Below, one piece after another: positions 41,701-63,224 of a DNA stretch of 64,000 nucleotides. The stretch covers positions 36,524,401 to 36,588,400 of the forward strand of contig CM120641.1 of assembly GCA_051362555.1 (NCBI GenBank), in the 5' to 3' direction. Position 1 is the stretch's first letter, and every line of letters begins with the position of its first letter. The translations under genes and the position numbers were made by a program. The stretch comes from Lingula anatina. Lineage: Eukaryota; Animalia; Brachiopoda. The notes beneath the pieces are model-generated. The model was not told where the DNA came from. It searched no databases and saw only the letters and a list, made by a program, of their open reading frames with translations.

Positions 41701-44545
41701 GGTCTGATAAAAAATATGCATGTGTTGGTGTTTGTGTGGATGGGCACATGCATACATGCCTGTGGCTTTTTAAAGATAAGACATTTCTGTCATGGAAGAG
41801 TTCTGATGCAGTTACAAATTCTAAAATGACCACTTTGATATTTTTTGTTGTAGGAGATGATGTAATAAAGGATGAAGGTAAGAAAGGTGAAAAGGACACA
41901 GAGAAAAGTGGACAGCTTATAGAACCTCCTGTCAAGGGGGACAGCAAGGGGGACAAAGCTGATGTTAAAAAGAAAGAAGGGGAGAAGGAAAAGGCAGTGG
42001 CTGTTGAGAAAAAAGAGGGAGAAGGTTGGTGGTGGGCATATATGTTGTCTTTTGTCGCTTTTATGCTTTTTGGACATGGTTCACAGAGGTGAAATCTGTA
42101 CTTGCTCAAATCCTCATTTTCTTCTCTCTTAATATACATTTACAAGATATGATATTCAAACTATTATATGGCAGATTCTCCCCTCTGTAAAATTATGGTA
42201 AATAATGAATTTACGTGATCTTGATTTCAAATTTCCAAACATTTTAAAGCAGTTCTGTCTTGCAGTTTTTGGAGGAAAAGAGAACTGCCTGCAAAACTAC
42301 AACATCAGTGTGCATAAGAATTGCCTGAAATATGCAATGTATTTCAGATGCTCATCTGCATCTCCATTGTTTGGTTGTTTGCCTATTGTGAATGAAGTCT
42401 TTCAGTTATTTTGGACAGATTATGGTTTGCTATTATTGCATATAAAATCTCCCTGTTATGGGGCATTTTATATTTTGCACATTCATCTTCCCTTATTTTT
42501 AGGAAAACTTTATACAACAGTATAGGCCTGTTGTAAAAAAAGCTTTGTGGAGATTTATGCATTACCTTTGATTCGGGAAAGATATTTTGGGTTTAAATAT
42601 TTTTGCTCTTTTTTTGTTCAGTTGCCTCAACTTTGGCACAATTTCGGATCTTATGAGCATTTTCTTCTGCTTTTCCATCCACCTTTTGCAATATTATCCT
42701 GCATTCAGTTTTTAAAACATAATTGTTATATTCTCCCAGATGTTGATGACAAGCGTCAAGAACCTCCAATTCCCCATGAGCCTGATGACAAGGTGCCAGA
42801 AGAAAAGGAAACTGATAAAGAAGGAGAAAAAGATAAGAGTGTAAAAGAAGGGGAAAATGCAAAAGACACGAAAAAGGTATGTTATTAGGGAAAATGGTCA
42901 AAATTCGCTCCAGATTAGCTAGGTAGAAAGTTATGCATCAAAGATTTCTGTTTTGTCGAAAAAATTTTCTGCACTAGAAGACATTTTTCATACATTATTC
43001 ACTCATACACATTTTAGCAAGAAAAGGATGATGTTAAGGACGTCCCAAACACAACTCCTTCAATGAAAGCAAAAGTGAAAAACTCAGAGGACAAAGAAGT
43101 GGCTGAAGACAAAAAAGAATTGAAGAAAGAAGATAAAGCAAGCGCAAAGAGCTCAAACAAAACACAGGCATGTACATGTATCAGTACCTTTTCTTATGCT
43201 GATCATTTTAGATGAAAATATGAGATTGAGGGTGACATTTTTTTTACCAGATATGAATAAATATTAAAACAAACATGATACAAGTTCTTAAATATGTTTT
43301 AAGATATTTCCTTTATAGCAGTATTTTTTGTCATACAATGTTTAGAGGTTAACTTTTGGCTTTACTTTAAAGGACCATATTGAGGAGAAACAGGAAGCAT
43401 TGCTGAAGGAATTACAGAAACAGCAAGTGGAAGCAAAGCAACTGCTGCAGGAACAAAGAGAAATCATAGAAGAATTGAAAAAACACAAAGAAGATCACAA
43501 GGGAGAGGTGTGTTAAAAGGAAACTGATTGACATCAAAGCTAACTATTTTAGTGAGGGAATTTTCATTACTGACCAGTAATAGTAATAAAATAGCTGTTT
43601 AATGTGAAAATAAATGTCTCTATTAATTTTTAGGAAGGAAAGATAGCCAGTGACCAAAATCAGCAGCCAGTTCAACAACAACAGCAATTGCCAGGACAGC
43701 AGCCACTAGTTCAAGGCAACCAGTTGGGGGTACAACAGCCACAACAGGGCCTAGGACAGCAGCCTGCTCAACAACAGCAAGTTCCAGTACAGCAACAACA
43801 GCTACAGCAAGTTCAACAGCCAGTGCAATTGCAGCAAAGTGCACAGCTGAAACAGAATGTACAACAACAGGCAGTGCAGGAACAACAACAGCAACAACAA
43901 CAACCATTACAACAGCAACAAGGGCAACAAAACATACCAGTACAACAACAGCAACAGGTACAAGTGCCTCAGCAGGCAGCGCAACAGCAGCAGCCTGGAC
44001 AGCTACTGCAACAACAGGGACAACAACCAGTGCAGCAACAGCAGCAGGTACAACAGCAGCAAGGACAACAAAACATAAATGTACAACAACAACAACAACC
44101 TGTACAGCAGCAAATGGGGATAAATGGACAACAATATCAAAACCAAGCACCTGCTGTAAATCAGCAGCAACAACAGCCAGCTGCACAGCAACAAAATCAG
44201 CAACAGCAACAACAGGTTTTGCAACAGCAAAAACAGCAGCCCATAGTACAACAGGGACAGCAGTTCCAACAAGTCCCACAAAACCAGCTTGCTGGTCAAC
44301 AACAACAACAACAACAAGATGTACCAGCAGGCAATGTGCTGCAACAAAATTATGGGCAGAATAACAAACAACAGGGTCAGGTGCCTCAAGGTGTAAACCA
44401 GGGCCAAAATAATGTGCCTGGAAATGTGGCTGGACAAGGATTACCACAACAACAACAACAACAACAACAACAACAGCAGTTTCAAGGGAAACAGCAGAAT
44501 CTCAAGCAAAATGACTTAGTGCAACAAGTTATGAATGGGGGTTAA
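35794..44545 (+). CDS. SLC38A10: Putative sodium-coupled neutral amino acid transporter 10 (SNAT10)
   Basis: [77 protein letters not shown]. Exons 35794-35895, 36227-36344, 36586-36631, 36904-36997, 37424-37564, 37818-37939, [38120-38222 or 38655-38757], 39641-39823, 40039-40153, 40534-40655, 41293-41491, 41854-42024, 42740-42876, 43018-43167, 43373-43507, 43634-44545. Confidence 0.93.
38120..38222 (+). CDS. SLC38A10: SLC38A10 alternative exon 7A (103 nt)
   Basis: tttcAG acceptor, GTAAGT donor; [34 protein letters not shown]. Confidence 0.75.
38655..38757 (+). CDS. SLC38A10: SLC38A10 alternative exon 7B (103 nt)
   Basis: ttacAG acceptor, GTAAGT donor; [34 protein letters not shown]. Confidence 0.85.
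41541..41630 (+). repeat. 30-bp minisatellite x3 (intronic)
   Basis: aaatatagcacaaataacaagttcatgctt repeated three times. Confidence 0.9.
43661..44500 (+). repeat. CAA/CAG-rich low-complexity coding region (Gln-rich tail of SLC38A10)
   Basis: In frame with exon start 43634; roughly half the residues are Gln, interspersed with P, V, G, N. Confidence 0.9.
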
Positions 44546-46451: not shown

Positions 46452-48765
46452 TTAGGCTGGAAACATTCCTTTGCAATGTGAGAGAGAATGCTGTGGCCAG
46501 TCTCCCATGAAGCACAATCCCCAGAAGACCAGTGGTGCAAAGCTTAGAGTAGCTGTCAGTAGTAATAGAGCTCCCATATGACCACTCCCACTCTTGCTGC
46601 TTTAAATAATAGATCCAGAACAATTTGAAAGTACATTGTGCCCACAACACGACTTGGACTTTTCTACATTAAAACTAAAACATTAACATATTCTGCAAAA
46701 TGAACAAAAATGAATATCAAATGCAATTGAACTTGCCTTTTCTTTATCAATTCTTAGAGCACAACTTGGTGGAACTAAAAATAACTCCAAGATTAAAATT
46801 GTTTGAAAAGAAAATTTATATTCTCAATAAACTTGATTGCACATACCTTCCAATACCGGAAAATCTGAGAATTGCCAACCATGCCATGACCAGAATCAAA
46901 CCACCAAGTTCTCTGAAACAAGGATAATACTGTTATTTACATCAAAAGCCCTGACACTATATTCCAAACAAATCTTAAATTTTTAAAACTCAAACTAAAA
47001 AACAAAACTTTTTTCAATATGGATGCCTGTGCAACATTTTGTCATCTGATGTTTGGATTCTTCCCCAGCTTCTATCATAATAACTGCTACAAACTCTGAT
47101 TTTAAACAGTTAAAACTGTTTCTTTACCTTCCTTCCTCATGCTGAAGTGGATTGACTCTAGTGCTTAAAGTCATTTCTAATACAGTAACAGTTAAGTACA
47201 GTGTTCCAGCCAAACAAATGGCCATGTGTATCACACAAACGCTCCTCCATGCAGTGTTTTCTGAAATAGAAGATCTACCATAAACAAAATTCAACCCCAC
47301 ATGTTACACTTTTGTTAAGTGCCATTTTCAAACTTTCAGATTACCATTTTGATGAGCAATGAGTTAGCAGTAGAAAAATTGCAAATCTCATATAGATTTG
47401 GCTTTAATTGACCAAATATAAATAAATGTATCTATTGTGTTTGCCATTAATGTCTTTAATGATCTCCCTAGTACCTGGTGTGAACAAGCTATAAAAGTTT
47501 TCATTCTTATAATTTGTTAATACTAAGTCAATTTTACCATTCAATATGAAAGAACTTACCAACAAGAATAGGCTTGATAGCAATTGTAAGACACAGCAGT
47601 GTAGGAATGAAATAAATAGGCTAAAAGAAAAAATAACTACCTATGAAATCATGTTGTCAACAAAAACTATTTGATCATTTTATAAACTCTATATTCATGT
47701 TGTTTAATTTAATGTTGTCATTGAAGTTGTTAATTTTTTAGTTAAATTTTTATTCTGAAAAATTACAACTGAACTATGACAGTAAGATCAGAAATTCAAG
47801 TACTGTACATCAAAATCTGAAGAAACGATTTTGTAATGTGTACCACAAATGTACAAATACAATAATATTATAAATATGAACATCTACCATTTTGAAATAT
47901 TATCACACTGCTGCATTATTTACACATGACAAAAAATACTTACAATCCAAATGTATGGGTCAGGATCATTAATCTAAAATCAAAAAATAAAAAAAACTGA
48001 ACAAATATGTATCTGACAAGACTTCCAGAATTATGCAATATCACCTTATACAGGATTACTAAGTACCCAGTATATATCATTAATGCCCTGTCCTTAGTTC
48101 AGCAGAGACCATATCATATGACAGCACAGAGTACAAGGTACCTGACTTCTATTCTTTCATCAATTATGGAGCAAACATCACACCTACAGAGACCTAATAA
48201 GTACAATTATTATATAGTAAGATAAGCATTGTTTTGTGAGCTTGTGTGAAAGTTACAACTGGAATAGGACATATAACACCACTGCCCTTTAACAGTAGTG
48301 TAAGACCTTCCACACATTTCCTGCCAGTGTCAGCAGTGATACCTTCTACACAATGATTACAAGATTGAAAGTTTCAGAATTATTATACAGTGTAAGTAAG
48401 TTCAAACTTACACCCTGAAAATCTTATTAAGTAAAGATTGAACTTACTTACACTGTGTAATGATTAATACAAGCATTACATTCTACTCTTTTGTTCATCA
48501 TTTGTATGAATTTACTGCAAAACAGCTGAAATTTAGGTATGGAATGATGGATGATTACTTCAATTTAGTTGTTACTGGCACAATTGGTAGTATAGATACT
48601 ATGTTACATTAAAGATGATGCAAAAGAACAATGAATGTTTCTTACCTGCACATAGGCTGCCAAAGCAAAGAATACAGCAGCAACCACATTAATGGCCTGC
48701 CATGCCTTTTGCCACCCAGCACTACCTTCCATGGAACTCTCCTCTACATCCTGGGGTTTTGTCAT
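46452..48765 (-). CDS. TMEM220: Transmembrane protein 220, about 185 aa
   Basis: Exons 48765-48646, 47973-47944, 47620-47560, 47260-47128, 46912-46847, 46599-46452. WQAINVVAAVFFALAAYVQINDPDPYIWIPIYFIP and PLQHEEGRELGGL match the remembered TMEM220 signature; ends HCKGMFPA. Not in the ORF track because the exons are short. Confidence 0.88.
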
Positions 48766-48840
48766 TTTCTGCATAAAGAGCAGAAAAAAGATTAGTTGTA
48801 TATTAATTGTTAGGGTAGTAACACCCCAGTCACCTCCCTA

Positions 48841-51900: not shown

Positions 51901-52088
51901 TAGAGCCTTTTCCTAAAATAATATTCGGATTTGATGCTTTGTTCAAGCTTTTTTGTTAACATAAAATTTCAATAACATTTTAGAATTGTGTTTTTCCATG
52001 TAGATGATTTTACATTTTGGTGAATTTTTGCAAAACTGTAAATATGCGCATCCAGAATTTCTAGGAAGCAGACGAATAACAACCAAGC

Positions 52089-55000
52089 ATGAAGATCAAT
52101 AGGACTGCTGTGTTTTTATGTGCAGTTGCACAATTTTTCATTTTATCAGCTGTTAAGAGCAGCGAAAGTGGAAGCACAGTTTTGCAGTACTGTTCATTTT
52201 TTAATAATAGAGCGCCGAAACCGCAACCCGATTTGAAAAATTGTACATGGTACAAGGAAAACAGTTGCTGCCTTCAGAGAGAAATTGATGCCACATTCGG
52301 CAAGGTTAAACCGCTTCAGGGAGCATCTAAAGACTGCTCTGATTATATTAACTATTTAATGTGCTATATATGTGCCCCAAATCAGAACTTATATTATAGG
52401 ATAGAGAGATTATATGTATGTGAAGGATTTTGTGACTCTCTGTACAGTGCTTGCAATTCTGCAATTTTGAAAGGATCAGTGATTAGAGACTTGTACTCAA
52501 ATGGAAAAGAATTTTGTGAAAGTAGACGATTCATTGTTAGAAATGCATCTGCAGAGAGTTGCTTTGATTTACATGAGTCACTTGTGAAAAGTGGAAGTAT
52601 ATGCCATAGTAATCCTAGCATAATTGTTGTCATCATAACTACATTTTGTGGCTTCCTTCTTACTCAGTTCATTAGTGTTGCCAATTCCAGTGAATCCCAT
52701 TTTCAATTTTTCAATCGTAGAAAGGCCAGTTGTGACAGACAAAGCAGTCTTGAAATTTCAAATAGCAGGGAGAAAGAAGAAACCTTTCTGTGTTTCAAAA
52801 CTCGCACAAAGAGTCTGTATTGTACACTGTCATTATTGTTGTTGTTTATATGTGGGATAAGTGCAAATGGTGCTGATGAGGCGAATTTTGCATCTAGAGC
52901 AGAACACTGGGCAGAGCTATTGTCTCAAGAGCTTCATAGTTTGGCTGACAAGGGACTGAAGGCAAATGATGCACAGAAACTTTATGATAATGCTGAGTAC
53001 CATACTAAGACCATAAATGGGACATCCATACTTCTGAAGTTGAAGAATAAGCTTGGTAGGTGTTTTCTATATTTATCATTTCTTGTGTGTTTTTACGAAT
53101 TCTAATAGGTATAATTTTTAGTTATAGATTTTGTTTTTAAGAAATTTTGATTTGAAAGTGATATTTTATTTGAGGATTTTGTAGTAATTAATACATATTT
53201 CAGTGGAGTGTGTTTTTTAATCAGGTAGAGGTATATTTGCTTTTTGAAGTTATTTTATATCATTCAGAATAAGAGACGTTTTAATAAGTTCACAATCTTT
53301 TCTCTCGCTTTTCAGAGTCTTTCTTTCAAAAGAAGAAGGAGCTAGCTGTTAAAATTGCTGAGAGAATAACGTTTCTGTATGATGACTGGGTGAATGATAA
53401 GAATAACACCATACCAAAGAGCCTCAAAGATTTGAGTTTTGAGGTGTTCAAAGATGCCGACAGTGACAAAGTTTTTCCAAGAGAGTTTGTTAAATACAGC
53501 AGGTGACCACTGAAATATATTAAAGTGCATTACAATGAAAAATTTTATTATGGATGTAAATCAGGGGCGGATTTAGGCCGTCTTCTGGGTCTTCCGGAAG
53601 ACGGTCAGATTTTCAAGTTTACATTGACGGGTATCTGTTTTTTTCTGTCGGAAGACGGTCAGAAATGGAGGATGGATCAACAAAGATAATTTGGAAGACT
53701 GTCAGAAAATATCTCTGGATCCGCCCCTGTGTAAATCACATATAATTTAAACCTAAGGCAATGACAGTTTTGTGTTAAAAAAATGAAAGAAGTATCAGTA
53801 TGGATAAATTAATGCCATTTTTTTGAGGAAATTAATAGTTTACATGCAACAATTTACATTCTTTGAGTTATTAAACATACATTGTATGTTTCATTTATTT
53901 TTATCTTAATTATTAATGTATTGATTAGTTTTTGATGAGATAAAATAATTTCCAGAGTATTCAAGGCAGAGGTGATGATGAACAGCAGTGTGGTCAAAAT
54001 ACCTGAAAAAGTAAACAGAAATAACCCAGAAGTAATTGGCACAGTTGCATGGTCTGCAGCCCTAGATAAGCTGTTTATTCAGAATGCCCAAGAAGACGAG
54101 GATATCAGGTTATCACACTTTTCTTAGCTGTGCATGTGTGACATGAAGTTTTTAAAGGAGATTGCTACTAAAGATTTCATGTATTTGCATCCATTACTTA
54201 GTATGTGTGAAGAACATTATTCTTAGAGTGATGTATTGTTATAACTTATAAATAAAAATTATTTACATATATCAGACTGTGTCCTATGAATATCATACTG
54301 AAATAGAGTTGTGACATTTAAACTAGGTTCAGTGAATAACCAATGGCCCAATAGCTGGAAGTTCATGAGAATATCTTTGTTAAAGTCCCATATGCCATTT
54401 TGACTGAGCTCTTTGAATGACAGCAGCATTGTGGATAGTATACCATAGAGAGTAGTTTGTTAAATGTATCCTGTATTTTCTAGGTGGCAGTATTTTGGGT
54501 CTAAGCTTGGAGTTCACAGATCATTCCCTGGAAAAGAAAGCAAACGTAACTTTATAGGTTTCCAACAGGACTATGATCCAAGAACAAGACCGTGGTATAT
54601 TGCTGCTACATCAGGGCCGAAACATATGGTCATCATTATGGATGTCAGTTCGTCAATGGAAGAAAATCATAGGTAGAATGAATTAGATTTTTGAACCATT
54701 TAATATAATGTAATAATTATACATTCATTCAATTTTCCGAACGTAAGTAAAAAAAATTTGATTAATTTAAACTTTTCATTACGACATACAGTTTAGTTGC
54801 CAGTATATTAAAAAAAGATAAAAAAGATATATCAAACGTGAAATGACATTTTTAACTTTATGTACCCAATAGAACCTAATATTTATCTTTGACAAGAAAA
54901 TGTTCGATAAACTGTCTTATATTATTTAAGGTTTTCTCGGATGAAGGCTACAACTAAAGCACTAATCAATTCAATGACAATGCAGGACAGGCTCAGCATT

Positions 55001-58000: not shown

Positions 58001-61000
58001 TTTCCCTCAAAAAATTTGCCCCCCTTTTTTAAAAAGAATTCTCTTTTCTCTCTTATCATCTATTCATTCAGTTTTAAATTTCAATCAACCTGTGGATGGT
58101 TAATTATGATAGCTTAATGAATATTAAATTGATTGTAGGAGCAGACTTTTTCTTAGTGCTGAATCTAGCCAAAGTTGATGAAACCTTCAGATACCCAGAA
58201 GAGCCTACCAACTTTGTCTACAGCCGTGTCATACCAGACAAACATGTCATTTCTGATAAGAATCCTGTTATTTCATTGCTTGACCCCCCTGACCCCACCT
58301 CAGGTAACTTAATTGGTTATTGAATCAGTATGATAACAGAATATTGATGCATGCCATCTCAAAAGCCCATGATGTATAGCATATGGGGATGTTAAATATG
58401 TTTTTATTGGTTATTGAATCAGTATTATAAAAGAATATTGATGCATGCCATCTCAAAAGTCCATGGTGTATGGCAAACAGGGATATTAATTTTTTTTATT
58501 ATTTTGGTTGAATTGCAGGCCCATGGTTTTTAATGACCGGTATTTTGAATGATAAATTATAGAAGTATTTGTGGTATAGCTTATTGTTTGATTTTTAATG
58601 CATCACAGTCCTTAATGCAAATGTCTTTATATATTTTCAGGTCTCAAAAATTACTCATATATTCACATGACAAAGTGGTCCATGTGCAACTTATTTGATG
58701 ATGACATGGAGATGCATATCAATGCTTCCCAGTTAGAACAAAATTTAAATGCTGTGGATGGTGTTCAGGGCTGTCCTGAAGGAGGAATATTCAGGGTTGG
58801 CGTTCGGTAAATGTCTTTGGTTTCAGTAAATTTAATGAGCTCAAGTATACATTGTTTTATGAAGGGAAGCTTATATTACCAAAATCCAGTCTAAAGAAAT
58901 TTAAGCGATTTTTTTCTGCATCATTAATTATCTTCAACTCTTGTTTTGCTCAGAGGTAATGCATTTGCTCATCTTGTTTGTTTTAACAAAAATGATTAGT
59001 TTTAAACTTTTAAATGACAGAAATAGTAAATCTTTAATTTTTTAGACTGAAATATAAGACTAATTATATCTCTGATTGAAGCTAGTTTCACTTGTAGTTT
59101 GAAAAATCTGATGAAGCAAAATAAAATAGGCTTTTTGTATTCTAGTGCTGATGTTAAGATAACCTCACGATTAGAATCTCTTTGGAAAGCAAGAAACACA
59201 GAGCTTCAGAGACAGATTTCATCAACCTACATAGCCACTGCTACTGGAATGATGAGAATTTTCCCTGGAGACCAGATTCCCAGCAGCTATGATCCAACTA
59301 GGTGAAGTAGCATGAAGGTTTTTAGTCAGTTGCTTACAGCTTAGAGGAAAAGTGATTTGAATCCACATGAAAATGACAAGACTTTGTAAGCAAGAATTGT
59401 CTAAAAGGTACATGACCTTGCAAATTGTTGACTATAAAAGAAAATTGTATGTTTTGAAGATATTTTTGATTCTTTTTCCCTAATGGTCTGCATGTGTCTT
59501 GTTTTAAACAGGCGACTGTGGTATAATCTTGCACTGGTGCGTCCTGGCAGTGTGGTCATGTCCAACATCTACAGAGGAATTAAAGAAGGTCACAAAATAA
59601 TCACCCTCTCGAAAACTGTGCATTCTGGCAAACCAACAAAACCAGCTGAGTGTAACACTGGTAACACCACTTTTTATATTATTATGTTATATCTCCCTTT
59701 TATTTTGTACTCTTCTTTAAGAGATTGAAATAAGCAAATTATGGTGCTTCCTCAAGAGGAAATAGATGGATATAATGTTAAGGATATTGTTACCCTGAAA
59801 ATGATTTTTTTCCTGCGTCTATTTATTCAATAATGCTTCTATCTTTGGGCTGATTTAAAACAATGAAAAAACTTGCAAAAATATGAAATATCGGCTTTTA
59901 TATTTTTTCGTTGCAATGTATAAGCATAGGCAACTCAAAGCTTTAAATGTCAATTTAATACCTTTCTATTTTGAGGTGAGATAGCAATCAGTATGGGGCA
60001 TTAATTCATCCTTGAACAAGATTTTAGCATGAAAATTGGCAGAGTGGACCACAAGTGTATGAGCTAAAATCCCATGCCAGCATTTTAGTTTAAATGCTTT
60101 TGTTATGGAGTTATGCGTAATTACAGATTTTCATTAAACAAAGGGATTATTTTGCTTTATCAACAATAAAATCTGAACTAAGACTAAAAATCGGTGGCAG
60201 GATTTTGGTGTACTAAATAATGTTATCAAATCGGCATTGAAACGGTGATCGTGGATGCTCAGGCAAAAGAGACATTTCAGAAACCGATTTTTCAGTTTTT
60301 ACCCCAAAATCACGATGAGGACATCACTCATAGGATGACATATGGGTAAATGTTACTTAATTTAGTCACTGATCACTGGAGATTTATTTATTACCCAAAA
60401 GAATGTACCATATGTAAGGCAGTAAATACGGAGTTTTGGACAAGGAGTGACAATATCCTTAATGGTATTTTTCTTTGATAAAGACAGACAAAATTAACAA
60501 GGTGTTTAATAAGCGACAACTCTGCAAAAAGGATCAGTAAACAGAATGAATTTTTTTTGTATTTCAAATATATAATGTTTAACTGGAATAACAGCTAAAT
60601 TTTAGGGTCAGTTGGTGTTCCTATGGGAAAAGATGTTAAATCCTCAGTGTGGATGATTTTTGAGCATAAAAACCTCAGCATCAGAATGTGTTCTGGGATC
60701 AGCTGTAAAACTTTCCTACTTACATAATAGCATGCAGTGCAGTTTGACTATTTGAAAAAAGATGCCCTCAAAATTAGGTTTCGTCAGGTTTGTTATCAAT
60801 ATTGTCTTTACATGAATATTAGGATAAAAATTCAATAGTATCAAACTGCCAATAATTTTTTGTAAATCCCATATCTTTAATAATGTTTTACAGGTAAAAG
60901 AAGGCAGGATGGTTGTCCTTGTACAAACAATGCTGATTGTGGCTCTGAGTACTGTTATAACCAGTCCTGTGCCAATTCTGACGTTGTGGGTGTGGCTGGC

Positions 61001-63224
61001 CTTGACCTTCTGTATGTAGAGTTCTTCAAAATGGTCCAGAACATCACAAAGACTGGTTTAAATTCCGATTTCTGTGACAGAATATACAGTTGTGGGACTA
61101 ACAAAACCTGTACAACACTGTAAGTTAACTTTCTGAAGCTGTCACAGAAGCAAATTTAGATAATAATAATAATAATGGTATTTTCATCATGTGAATTGAT
61201 ATCAGAATATATTTTGGAAGAAAGTCTTAAGAGGGTAGCCATCTTTGAAGATTTATGTGGTCTAGTTGCAAGCACAGATTTCATTTTGGTGGTAAAATAG
61301 AATTTACCATATTTCTGTGTGTTGTGTACATTAATTGTATTTACATGTGTGGAATTTTTATCTCTTGTGAAGAGTTGTTTTCCTTTTAAATTCCCTTAAA
61401 ATTAAAAATGAAATAAAACATAGAATCCAAGTCCAAGAAGCAGTTATTTGTGAGTAGGAAATCCTGTGGTGTGGCCCTTTTAGCTTTTATTTTGGTCAAC
61501 AAGCTCATTTCTTTGGCATTGGTACTATAGATTTTTAAGGTTTTAAGATATGAAAAATTCATGCATTTTGGATTATGATTATCTGTTTATGTTGATTGAA
61601 ACAGATTAATGACTGAATTAAATTTGTGCTGCATGTGCTGTCAAATACAAAAACAAAATGTTATTTTATAATGGAGTTTAATACAAACTTAGGCTATCAT
61701 TATACAATATTCTAGGTGTTATCTGGTCAATGATGAGGTTCAATTAATCTTGGATTCCTCCTTTCTCACTGTGCCGGACTACTTTGAAACTCGCTATGGT
61801 GAGATATCTCTGGCCGAGCGCCATGGTTCAGTGGTACAAAAGCTTATGCAGAAAAAGGTGGTGATTCCCCTTACCCGTACTGATTTTGATGCTATTTGTC
61901 AACGATCCAATGACATACCAGAGGTATGTGCCTGACATAGAATTATTTTACAGAATTTTTTTAACTGTGCATAAAATGCAACCATCTTTTTGGTGTAATT
62001 GACATAAATATCAATATTGAATAATACTTAATGTGAATATAATATTATCTTTCATTAGTAAATTATTTTCACTATGGATATTGCTCTTTGCAAATTATGC
62101 CTTTTAAAAACATTTAAGGGTGTATATTGCCCTTTATGATTTACGGTTTCTTTTTGAGAATTTAAAATCTACACAAGGTTTTCATTCTTTTTTTTTTTTC
62201 AGAAAACTGACTTTGAAGATCCCTCAAAGAGAGGACCACTTCCACCATTTCAAAACGAATACGCCTGTATTAAAGCAAGGCAAAAGTACCACATTAATGG
62301 CACTGCTTTGGCTGAGCATGGTGGAAAAATAGTGGCAAACCTTGACAACGACCCCTGTGCTGATGGCACCTTTGTCTTTGTAATTATTCCTAACACCAAT
62401 ACTTACCTTTTGACCATCTTCAATTACTGGGAGAGAAAAACAGTTTTCAATTGGAACTGCCATCTCCTGAAAAGGTATGTTGTATTGATGTCAACTTATA
62501 AAAGTCCACACATTACGTGTAATTGGAATGATCAATATGCAGCTAGGTCATATTTTTTATGTTGATTTATTAATGTAAATCAAGTATATGACCCCATTCC
62601 CAGAGATTAGATCGATCCAACTAGATTGACCTAACTCCCTGGAGGTTCACGCTAAATAGCTGTCATCCAAGCGGGCACGAAAGTTAATTACCCCCTTACA
62701 GCTTGTAGTAGGCGGGACAGACATTTAAGCCAGATTATCTGACAGTAATCTAGTGAGACTCCCCACGGGGATAGATCGATCTAAAATATATGGGAATGCA
62801 CCCTAGGATAATGTTATATAAGAAAATAGCTGCAGGTGGACATTTCTAGAATGTTAGGCAATGTTGAAATTAGCTTCATGTACATAGCTCGTCTATTTAA
62901 TATTATTATAATGGTTCAAATTTCATTATCAGTTGACTTTAAAAAGAGGATTTGTTTATAAGTGAAGCCAGACCTAGTACCTTTCACTCTTTTTCTATTT
63001 CCAGTGTGTTTGTCCCCAAGTCATTTGAGGTTACCGAAGGGTTCTGTGAGCAGTCAGAAGTGGCAGTCCGCCACAATCCCATACAGCTGTTAACTAAAGA
63101 ATGTCCAGTTATTAAACCTGTGAAGCCTTTGTGTCCAGCTATCATCAGTACCGCCAGCACGTTATTGAGTTCACTGTATATGTCTCTTTTGATGAATTTG
63201 ATCTGGATCTCTTTAAGTAATTAG
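52089..63224 (+). CDS. Folate-receptor-domain plus alpha2delta/CACHD1-like VWA and Cache domain protein, about 18 exons
   Basis: Exon 1 52089-53055 (signal peptide, Cys-rich folate-receptor-like domain NCTWYKENSCC...YLMCYICAP...VCEGFCDSLYSAC, TM, second hydrophobic signal). Later exons give RWQYFGS, YDPRTRPWYIAA, VIIMDVSSSM, FITDG, LQRLACEN, WSSPYLD..GLGLMVTVA, TGMMRIFPG, YDPTRRLWY, IPNTNTYLL and a hydrophobic C-terminus; stop at 63224. Confidence 0.88.
53562..53729. mobile_element. 168-bp MITE
   Basis: TIRs caggggcggat ... atccgcccctg; tgtaaat duplicated on both flanks; internal ggaagacggtcaga about three times. Confidence 0.75.
58313..58500 (+). repeat. 94-bp tandem duplication (intronic)
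   Basis: ttggttattgaatcagtat...gatgcatgccatctcaaaag at 58313 and 58407. Confidence 0.85.
59782..60458. mobile_element. Non-autonomous TTAA-targeting DNA transposon (Kolobok-like)
   Basis: ttaa-ggatattgttac ... gtgacaatatcc-ttaa. Confidence 0.7.
62596..62797. mobile_element. About 200-bp MITE-like repeat, copy 2
   Basis: Colinear with and highly similar to 22294-22496. Confidence 0.75.

What the first reader, a model, noticed from the sequence alone, without database searches (positions are those of the whole stretch)
52089..53055. Apparent cellular polyprotein: folate-receptor-like membrane protein joined through an internal signal peptide to an alpha2delta-like protein
Seen: one uninterrupted exon encodes a signal peptide, a Cys-rich domain, a TM helix (IIVVIITTFCGFLLTQFISV), a ~45-aa polar loop (RRKAS, RQSS), then basic residues plus a short hydrophobic core and small-residue cleavage-like site (KTRTKSLYCTLSLLLLFICGISANG-ADE), then the helix typical of the alpha2delta N-terminus (AEHWAELLSQEL). 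There is no Met between the TM and the second signal, so the downstream module cannot start from its own AUG there. Known: alpha2delta/CACHD1 proteins start directly with one signal peptide, and folate receptor/Juno/riboflavin-binding proteins are normally stand-alone. Inference: signal peptidase could release two surface proteins 1:1 from one ORF, as in viral envelope polyproteins, or the uncleaved hairpin could display a vitamin/ligand-binding domain beside a VWA-Cache sensor.
Basis: partly seen in the sequence, partly recalled or inferred. Interest (0 to 1): 0.85.

Follow-up and report, generated by a model that had tools for sequence, protein, structure and literature searches.

The report
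Ancient two-in-one surface receptor polyprotein
A lamp-shell gene, laid out the same way in worms, a sponge and a single-celled relative of animals, encodes a folate-receptor-shaped protein and a relative of calcium-channel accessory subunits in one reading frame, which is likely cut, like a viral polyprotein, into two membrane-anchored surface proteins that are predicted to bind each other.

Summary
Exon 52089-53055 is one open frame (only in-frame ATGs: M1, M91) and is spliced to 53316 in RNA reads. The protein is Lingula XP_013417008.1. The layout Folate_rec domain, hydrophobic segment H1, loop, hydrophobic segment H2, VWA-Cache occurs in 34 proteins: brachiopod, annelids, nemerteans, the sponge Sycon, the choanoflagellate Salpingoeca and unnamed eukaryotes, some with two tandem Folate_rec units. 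Of 33 with two segments, 29 have a signal-peptidase-type site after H2 (13 after H1) and 29 a GPI omega-like triplet before H1 (10 of 28 before H2). Most stand-alone homologues end at H1, so H1 is likely an internal GPI signal, not a plain TM helix. The second module is a 'double-AA-motif' protein, the group ancestral to alpha2delta and CACHD1. The folate-binding Asp is a conserved Leu. A structure model docks the loop beside the amino-acid-binding motif into the Folate_rec domain (0.77; best control 0.01). Cleavage, GPI addition and binding are inferred, not shown. Three of six RNA runs suggest a shorter transcript starting in the loop. No description was found in ten literature searches.

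The parts
52089..52157 (+). N-terminal signal peptide SP1 (about residues 1-23; end estimated)
   Evidence: Sequence and hydropathy
52191..52562 (+). Folate_rec-family Cys-rich domain (C35-C158); Leu90 at the FRalpha D103 position; Glu65 invariant in fused copies
   Evidence: Pfam E 7.5e-17; model pLDDT 85; Z 12.0 to riboflavin-binding protein
52590..52598 (+). Candidate internal GPI omega site S168-G169-S170 (inferred)
   Evidence: Omega-like triplet before H1 in 29 of 33 fused proteins
52620..52679 (+). Hydrophobic segment H1 (178-197), homologous to the terminal GPI-type signal of stand-alone relatives
52680..52814 (+). 45-residue loop, predicted cytosolic, net positive, no Met; sequence not conserved between species; RNA depth rises near 52750 in three runs
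52815..52871 (+). Internal signal peptide H2/SP2 (243-261); predicted cleavage ANG|ADE or one residue later; begins with a CTG codon that has A at -3
52872..53055 (+). N-terminal helix of the mature VWA-Cache module; exon ends at a phase-1 intron at the same codon as in L003 and L027
53316..63224 (+). Remaining exons of the double-AA-motif VWA-Cache module, ending in a C-terminal GPI-type signal (omega-like STA) and the stop codon
   Evidence: tblastn of P0002; four splice joints in RNA
54545..54565 (+). Loop R457-Q463 (RNFIGFQ) predicted to insert into the Folate_rec domain
54572..54598 (+). First amino-acid-binding motif YxxxxRxWY (Y466-Y474)
   Evidence: motif defined in PMC8915833
54641..54655 (+). 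MIDAS DxSxS motif (D489-S493) of the VWA domain

Best explanation
The gene encodes a folate-receptor-fold domain and a VWA-Cache protein in one reading frame, which is likely cut in the ER into two surface proteins that are predicted to bind each other. Shown: one open frame, splicing, domain identities, and the conserved H1-loop-H2 hairpin. Inferred steps: SP1 opens translocation and the Folate_rec domain enters the lumen; H1 stops transfer; the basic loop stays in the cytosol; H2 acts as an internal signal peptide and signal peptidase cuts after about G261, freeing the VWA-Cache protein with its own C-terminal GPI-type anchor (about 0.8). GPI transamidase likely also takes H1 as an internal GPI signal and anchors the Folate_rec domain at about S168, discarding the hairpin (about 0.55; otherwise the domain stays tethered by the hairpin, as in astrotactins). 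The two products likely form a 1:1 complex in which the hydrophobic loop 457-463 sits in the former vitamin pocket (about 0.65). That would make the small domain a co-receptor or folding partner next to the amino-acid-binding site, not a vitamin carrier.
For: 34 fused proteins from Lingula, Owenia, Tubulanus, Lineus, Helobdella, Sycon, Salpingoeca and unnamed records, including raw genomic frames L003 and L027 with the same intron position. Signal-peptidase rule after H2 in 29 of 33 against 13 of 33 after H1 (Fisher p 8e-5); omega-like triplet before H1 in 29 of 33 against 10 of 28 before H2 (p 4e-5); loop net positive in 31 of 33, 8-117 residues long, with no significant similarity in 6 of 6 pairs tested. 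131 of 163 stand-alone homologues end within 15 residues of H1. Tandem units repeat the two-segment junction between Folate_rec domains in P0167, P0182, P0196, P0218. Fused and stand-alone forms mix on the tree, at least 3 changes forced, as expected if splitting at the loop leaves two complete proteins. Complex model 0.77 against best control 0.01; runs agree in at least 93% of contacts, partner pLDDT 86; the mark was reached by 51 of 78 solved complexes and 2 of 108 mismatched pairs, and on eukaryotes by 39 of 65 solved pairs without a like complex and 2 of 126 unrelated pairs. The NF[IA]GF loop is kept in Owenia, both nemerteans, Sycon, Salpingoeca and unfused Saccoglossus. Precedents: astrotactins; an internal GPI signal works in an engineered protein.
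Against: No experiment shows cleavage, GPI addition or binding. The site rules are my own simple patterns, with 34% and 28% background rates, and related sequences are not independent. P0182 has a single hydrophobic segment before its VWA-Cache module. Depth upstream/downstream of 52755 is 0.03/4.8, 0.4/4.2 and 1.2/5.8 in X1-X3, against 3.8/4.1 in X8. The 21 predicted interface residues of the Folate_rec domain are not more conserved than the rest (0.63 vs 0.59; 2895 of 10,000 permutations). Helobdella keeps the fusion but lacks the loop. The complex job held a magnesium ion, which the calibration did not, used only residues 263-1125, and a distantly similar complex (CACHD1 with a Frizzled CRD) is solved.
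Confidence: 0.6

Rival explanations
1. The protein is not cleaved: H1 and H2 form a two-pass hairpin that tethers the Folate_rec domain to the VWA-Cache ectodomain in one chain, and the predicted contact is intramolecular.
For: Internal signal-peptidase cleavage is uncommon in cellular proteins (10.1101/493858 discussion). The complex model fits either case. 4 of 33 proteins lack my strict cleavage pattern after H2.
Against: Small -3/-1 residues follow H2 but mostly not H1. The sequence after H2 lines up with the mature N-terminus of alpha2delta-1, and H2 with its signal peptide. Omega-like sites are kept in fused forms (29 of 33) at least as well as in stand-alone ones (70 of 117). Repeated splitting.
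Confidence: 0.15
2. Most VWA-Cache protein is made from a shorter transcript that starts in the loop, from an AUG in most species and a CUG (L243) in Lingula; the long fused form is a second or minor product.
For: Rise in depth near 52750 in X1-X3. In-frame Met in the loop of 24 of 33 proteins. CTG with A at -3 at the start of H2.
Against: X7 and X8 have depth in every bin across the exon. 24 is not above the 20.7 expected by chance (p 0.13). 9 of 33 have no Met, some with loops of 8-13 residues. No start pile-up or loose end was listed in the loop. Separate starts would not keep the frame open in so many lineages. Read counts are low (13-35 per run).
Confidence: 0.15
3. The chain is cleaved 1:1, but the products act apart: the Folate_rec domain captures a small hydrophobic ligand (flavin, sterol, lipid) and fusion only co-regulates the two.
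For: Fold shared with riboflavin-binding protein, NPC1 and HHIP. Interface not extra-conserved. Many stand-alone genes exist.
Against: Complex score 0.77 against 0.01. The docking loop is conserved here but differs in alpha2delta-1 and CACHD1.
Confidence: 0.08
4. The fusion is an artefact of assembly or gene models joining two neighbouring genes.
For: Two other long hits (Glandiceps P0006, Diadema P0007) look like such merges.
Against: The junction lies inside one exon of raw DNA here and in L003 and L027, is covered by RNA and recurs in 34 proteins.
Confidence: 0.02

Closest known systems
Astrotactins 1 and 2 (bioRxiv 10.1101/493858; abstract, introduction and discussion read)
   Same: Signal peptide, lumenal domain, two hydrophobic segments around a cytosolic loop, large lumenal domain; signal peptidase cuts at the second segment.
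   Different: No astrotactin-type domain was reported by Pfam. Astrotactin halves stay linked by a disulfide and the large half has no anchor of its own; here each module ends in its own GPI-type signal, the junction is repeated in tandem forms, and the layout reaches to choanoflagellates.
Viral envelope polyproteins (Flaviviridae, bunyaviruses; search listing only, plus recall)
   Same: An anchor segment followed by an internal signal peptide releases successive ectodomains 1:1.
   Different: Cellular, intron-containing gene; the first anchor looks like a GPI signal.
DAFhGH chimera, Caras 1991 (PMC2288913; abstract read)
   Same: A GPI signal placed inside a chain still directs anchor addition.
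   Different: Engineered; no downstream signal peptide and no natural gene family.
Double-AA-motif dCache_1 group, Gumerov et al. 2022 (PMC8915833; passages, section 12, Dataset S3 part 1 and supplement search)
   Same: The Lingula, Helobdella, Salpingoeca and Saccoglossus proteins found here are listed in this group, which the paper places at the root of alpha2delta and CACHD1.
   Different: 'folate' occurs 0 times in the main text and in the six supplements held as text, 'signal peptide' 0 times in the main text: the upstream domain and the hairpin are not described there.
CACHD1-FZD5 CRD complex (bioRxiv 10.1101/2022.05.16.492129; passages read)
   Same: A VWA-Cache protein binds a Cys-rich domain of the wider CRD fold, at the CRD's lipid site.
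   Different: CACHD1 uses a C-terminal FZI domain, not the loop beside the first amino-acid motif; Frizzled CRD is only Z about 3 from this domain; separate genes.
Folate receptors, Juno, riboflavin-binding protein
   Same: Pfam family and fold (Z 11-12); GPI-type tail. Juno is a precedent for turning this fold into a protein-binding surface (PMC4751342, passages read).
   Different: About 125 residues against about 200, 17-26% identity, Leu at the D103 position, and fused.

Membership tests
Folate_rec (PF03024) | Pfam score above the gathering cut-off | tested here: met
   62.1 bits against 29.8
Folate_rec (PF03024) | Fold of folate receptor / riboflavin-binding protein | tested here: met
   Z 12.0, rmsd 2.4, 126 aligned to 6hce; Z 11.1-11.8 to Juno and FRs
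Folate-binding receptors (FRalpha/beta) | Ligand-binding Asp (FRalpha D103) | tested here: not met
   Profile alignment puts Leu90 on D103; Leu in 92% of fused and 90% of stand-alone domains; role of D103 from PMC4751342
Folate-binding receptors (FRalpha/beta) | Binds folate | not testable with these tools
   Needs a binding assay
alpha2delta (CACNA2D1-4) | VWA_N, VWA with MIDAS, double dCache | tested here: met
   DxSxS and the later Asp kept, Ser at the Thr position
alpha2delta (CACNA2D1-4) | Falls in the alpha2delta cluster | tested here: not met
   XP_013417008.1 is listed under 'Double motif group' in Dataset S3 of PMC8915833; this is their tree, looked up here, not rebuilt. The database name 'alpha-2/delta-3' is a similarity label.
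alpha2delta (CACNA2D1-4) | Associates with a CaV channel | not testable with these tools
   No data
CACHD1 | Falls in the CACHD1 cluster, with the amino-acid motif in the second dCache only | tested here: not met
   Best PDB hit (E 7.6e-39), but the first motif is intact here and Dataset S3 files it apart
Double-AA-motif dCache_1 group | YxxxxRxWY in both dCache domains, with downstream Tyr and Asp | tested here: met
   Y466-Y474 with Y719 and D750; Y1018-Y1026 with Y1042 and D1109, the latter spaced by a Cys-rich insert; listed in the group
Astrotactin-type processing | Signal peptide, lumenal domain, two hydrophobic segments, lumenal domain | tested here: met
   Hydropathy and charge in 33 of 34 fused proteins; a prediction, not a topology map
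Astrotactin-type processing | Signal peptidase cleaves at the second segment | not testable with these tools
   Pattern supports it (29 of 33); needs a microsome assay
GPI-anchored proteins | Omega site, spacer, hydrophobic tail, processed by transamidase | tested here: inconclusive
   Pattern present in 29 of 33, but internal; processing untested

The most novel reading that the evidence does not exclude
A natural cellular polyprotein cassette, 'GPI signal - cytosolic loop - signal peptide', older than animals, lets one mRNA make two or three separately GPI-anchored surface proteins at fixed ratio. Its products form a complex in which a folate-receptor-fold subunit caps the loop beside the amino-acid-binding site of the ancestral alpha2delta/CACHD1 protein: a lost partner subunit of that family, still paired after the gene split in molluscs and deuterostomes.
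Probability: 0.35. Interest if true: 0.92.

Novelty: new variant of a known kind. Interest (0 to 1): 0.8.

Why it matters
Internal cleavage by signal peptidase is routine in viruses but has few cellular examples, and I found no natural gene that pairs it with an internal GPI signal. A cassette kept from choanoflagellates to brachiopods gives ER biologists a natural substrate for both reactions, and warns annotators that 'two TM helices' between ectodomains can be a polyprotein junction. It also names a testable partner for the group at the root of alpha2delta and CACHD1, whose original job is unknown, and gives a candidate function to a conserved family now labelled 'riboflavin-binding protein-like'. 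Salpingoeca rosetta carries the gene (PTSG_05636) and is, from recall, genetically tractable.

Tried and rejected
No whole genome is held for the window, so Lingula paralogues were not searched. No RNA holder was listed by the index; nine raw-read runs of the same species label were offered and six were laid (X1, X2, X4, X7; X1, X2, X3, X8). A search with the VWA-Cache part returned only P0002 and Saccoglossus P0126 among 7991 scored candidates, so mollusc orthologues of that half were not seen. ESM Atlas gave nothing for residues 1-420; for a stand-alone homologue it gave Folate_rec clusters and a weak Mid1 lead at 0.77. 41 of 43 metagenome loci had no VWA-Cache match, but they hold only 1 to about 5200 bases downstream, so linkage after splitting is untested. 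I expected invariant Glu65 to bind the MIDAS metal; the model's listed interface holds neither Glu65 nor MIDAS residues, so that idea got no support. Met in the loop is not enriched. The domain tree is poorly resolved (12 of 88 branches starred; quick method) and no order of events was tested; the 11-row tree only groups the unnamed P0167, P0182, P0196 with Salpingoeca, so their taxa are unknown. Earlier scan findings: nothing. Literature searches listed no paper on this architecture, judged from titles and abstract starts; the library lacks most subscription journals. A survey of CRD families that I recall (Pei and Grishin 2012) was not held and may mention it. bioRxiv supplements were not seen.

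Full report
Observation. Its only in-frame ATGs are M1 and M91. Residues 37-145 match Folate_rec above the curated cut-off and later exons match VWA_N and Cache families. The protein is Lingula anatina XP_013417008.1, 1379 residues, whose exons map along the window to the stop at 63224. RNA reads show the GT-AG intron to 53316 (8, 3 and 4 reads in X1-X3, and 2-3 divergent reads in X8) and three later introns. X8 has depth in all 17 bins from 52084 to 53035 and X7 in all six bins from 52002 to 53003. None of 24 listed variants in the exon makes a stop, and the single indel is six bases in the loop. The loop is open against 3.4% of shuffles and 4 of 1054 intron stretches. No single molecule spanning both modules was available.

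Spread. The first search found the same layout in Owenia, Tubulanus and Lineus. A full-library search (297 hits, best 150 listed) and a metagenome scan (43 loci) added many more. With profiles of both modules, 34 proteins carry a Folate_rec domain followed by the VWA-Cache N-terminus. That count leaves out P0001, P0143 (near copy of L003) and the cluster co-members P0249-P0282; the L027 frame has the same junction as P0135 and is counted once; P0148, P0202 and P0218 show hairpins but missed the profile cut-off. Named members include Helobdella, Sycon ciliatum and Salpingoeca rosetta PTSG_05636. L003 and L027 are raw genomic frames that end at the same phase-1 intron as the Lingula exon, so gene models cannot explain the fusion. 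Three unnamed proteins that group with Salpingoeca have two Folate_rec units ahead of the VWA-Cache module, and the junction between units again has two hydrophobic segments.

Anatomy of the junction. Stand-alone homologues occur in molluscs, echinoderms, Nematostella, amphioxus and some annelids; 131 of 163 with a complete domain end within 15 residues of the segment that matches H1, after a run of small residues. That is the shape of a GPI signal (established knowledge). In fused proteins, 33 of 34 have two separate segments; P0182 has one before its VWA-Cache module. An omega-like triplet precedes H1 in 29 of 33, against 10 of 28 before H2 and 70 of 117 in stand-alone forms. A strict -3/-1 signal-peptidase pattern follows H2 in 29 of 33, against 13 of 33 after H1. 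The loop is 8-117 residues and net positive in 31 of 33 (Fisher p 4e-5 and 8e-5). These are my own simple rules, with backgrounds of 28% and 34%, and related sequences are not independent. Loops of the four named spiralians show no significant similarity in 6 of 6 pairs: length and sequence drift while frame, charge and both signals are kept. H2 aligns with the signal peptide of alpha2delta-1. The VWA-Cache module ends in a hydrophobic tail in 9 of 10 full-length proteins, with an omega-like triplet in 5. On the domain tree fused and stand-alone forms mix (18 changes, at least 3 forced by starred branches; poorly resolved), with close pairs that differ, such as P0133/P0012 and P0130/P0034.

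Identity of the modules. Gumerov et al. 2022 (PMC8915833) list this Lingula protein, with the Helobdella, Salpingoeca and Saccoglossus proteins found here, in the 'double motif group', which they place at the root of alpha2delta and CACHD1. They do not mention folate in the text or in six supplements. Both YxxxxRxWY motifs and the MIDAS DxSxS are present. The Saccoglossus member has its own signal peptide and no Folate_rec domain. The small domain folds like riboflavin-binding protein, Juno and folate receptors (Z 11-12), but Leu90 stands at FRalpha D103, a position whose change is tied to Juno's loss of folate binding (PMC4751342), and is Leu in about 90% of 195 domains. Folate binding is therefore unlikely.

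Why stay fused. A complex prediction of residues 32-162 with 263-1125 scored 0.77, best of three controls 0.01; runs agree in at least 93% of contacts and the partner's pLDDT is 86. The mark was reached by 51 of 78 solved complexes and 2 of 108 mismatched pairs (eukaryotes: 39 of 65 without a like complex, 2 of 126 unrelated), and the job, with a magnesium ion, is unlike the calibration. The model supports binding; it does not show it. The closest contacts put F459, I460, G461 and F462 against I87, L90, M91, Y93 and R146, the helix that carries D103 in FRalpha, so I read it as the former vitamin pocket (inference). This loop lies just before the first amino-acid motif, is NF[IA]GF in Lingula, Owenia, both nemerteans, Sycon, Salpingoeca and Saccoglossus, varies in the three unnamed proteins, is missing in Helobdella, and differs in alpha2delta-1 and CACHD1. 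Against it: the interface as a whole is not more conserved than the rest of the domain. A CACHD1-Frizzled CRD complex is solved, but it uses a C-terminal domain of CACHD1 (10.1101/2022.05.16.492129), so simple recall by the model is less likely, though not excluded.

Mechanism and rivals. Most likely (0.6): signal peptidase cuts after H2, as shown for astrotactins (10.1101/493858); transamidase probably also uses the internal GPI signal, as it can in an engineered protein (PMC2288913); the two products pair 1:1. Rivals are an uncleaved hairpin (0.15), separate initiation in the loop (0.15), unpaired products (0.08) and artefact (0.02). The main result against a single transcript is the RNA step: upstream/downstream depth of 0.03/4.8, 0.4/4.2 and 1.2/5.8 in three runs of one study, against 3.8/4.1 in X8, on 13-35 reads per run. 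A short RNA may exist in some tissues, and in Lingula it could start only at a non-AUG codon such as the CTG of L243; 3' bias or a divergent allele could also give the step. Met in the loop (24 of 33) is at chance level (20.7 expected).

Novelty and verdict. Each ingredient has a precedent; the combination, its age and the predicted partnership were not found in ten searches (titles and abstract starts), in a library that lacks most subscription journals. The domain string is visible in public Pfam annotations, so it may be catalogued without being interpreted. I file it as a new variant of a known kind, interest 0.8.

Noticed in passing
window 53562-53729: MITE-like element in intron 2 with 11-bp terminal inverted repeats and a 7-bp direct repeat on both flanks; RNA depth of several hundred with varied flanks shows many transcribed copies elsewhere.
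   Followed up: partly
P0034 against P0130: 82% identical over 191 residues up to the start of the loop, then unrelated. By eye the P0034 tail reads like another frame of the P0130 loop: a frameshift that would split the gene, or an assembly error. No DNA was at hand.
   Followed up: partly
P0182, residues 361-410: Only one hydrophobic segment, preceded by small residues and followed by a cleavage-like site, separates the second Folate_rec unit from the VWA-Cache module; the topology is unexplained.
   Followed up: partly
P0147 (Helobdella): Keeps the fusion and hairpin but has lost the predicted docking loop and the second amino-acid motif; long branch.
   Followed up: partly
P0006 (Glandiceps), P0007 (Diadema): Folate_rec domain joined to unrelated proteins without the two-segment junction; probably gene-model merges.
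   Followed up: partly
P0126 (Saccoglossus), about residues 351-525 and 526-700: A duplicated block, likely an assembly or model error.
   Followed up: no
window 60884-60970 (P0002 about 1069-1097): Small Cys-rich insert in the second dCache, shared across the family; only a weak Prokineticin match, E 0.34.
   Followed up: no
P0002 Glu65 (window 52281-52283): Invariant in 36 of 36 fused and 155 of 159 stand-alone domains but outside the predicted interface; role unexplained.
   Followed up: partly
Named hits against Dataset S3 of PMC8915833: No vertebrate, insect or nematode name appears among the named Folate_rec homologues, and these lineages also have no double-motif protein in that table; Nematostella has the small domain but no listed double-motif protein. 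Most hits are unnamed, so this is a lead only.
   Followed up: partly
window 48604-48837 (-) and 43634-44545 (+): Upstream neighbours: an exon that looks like TMEM220 (recalled; no Pfam match) on the opposite strand, and a long Gln-rich frame.
   Followed up: no
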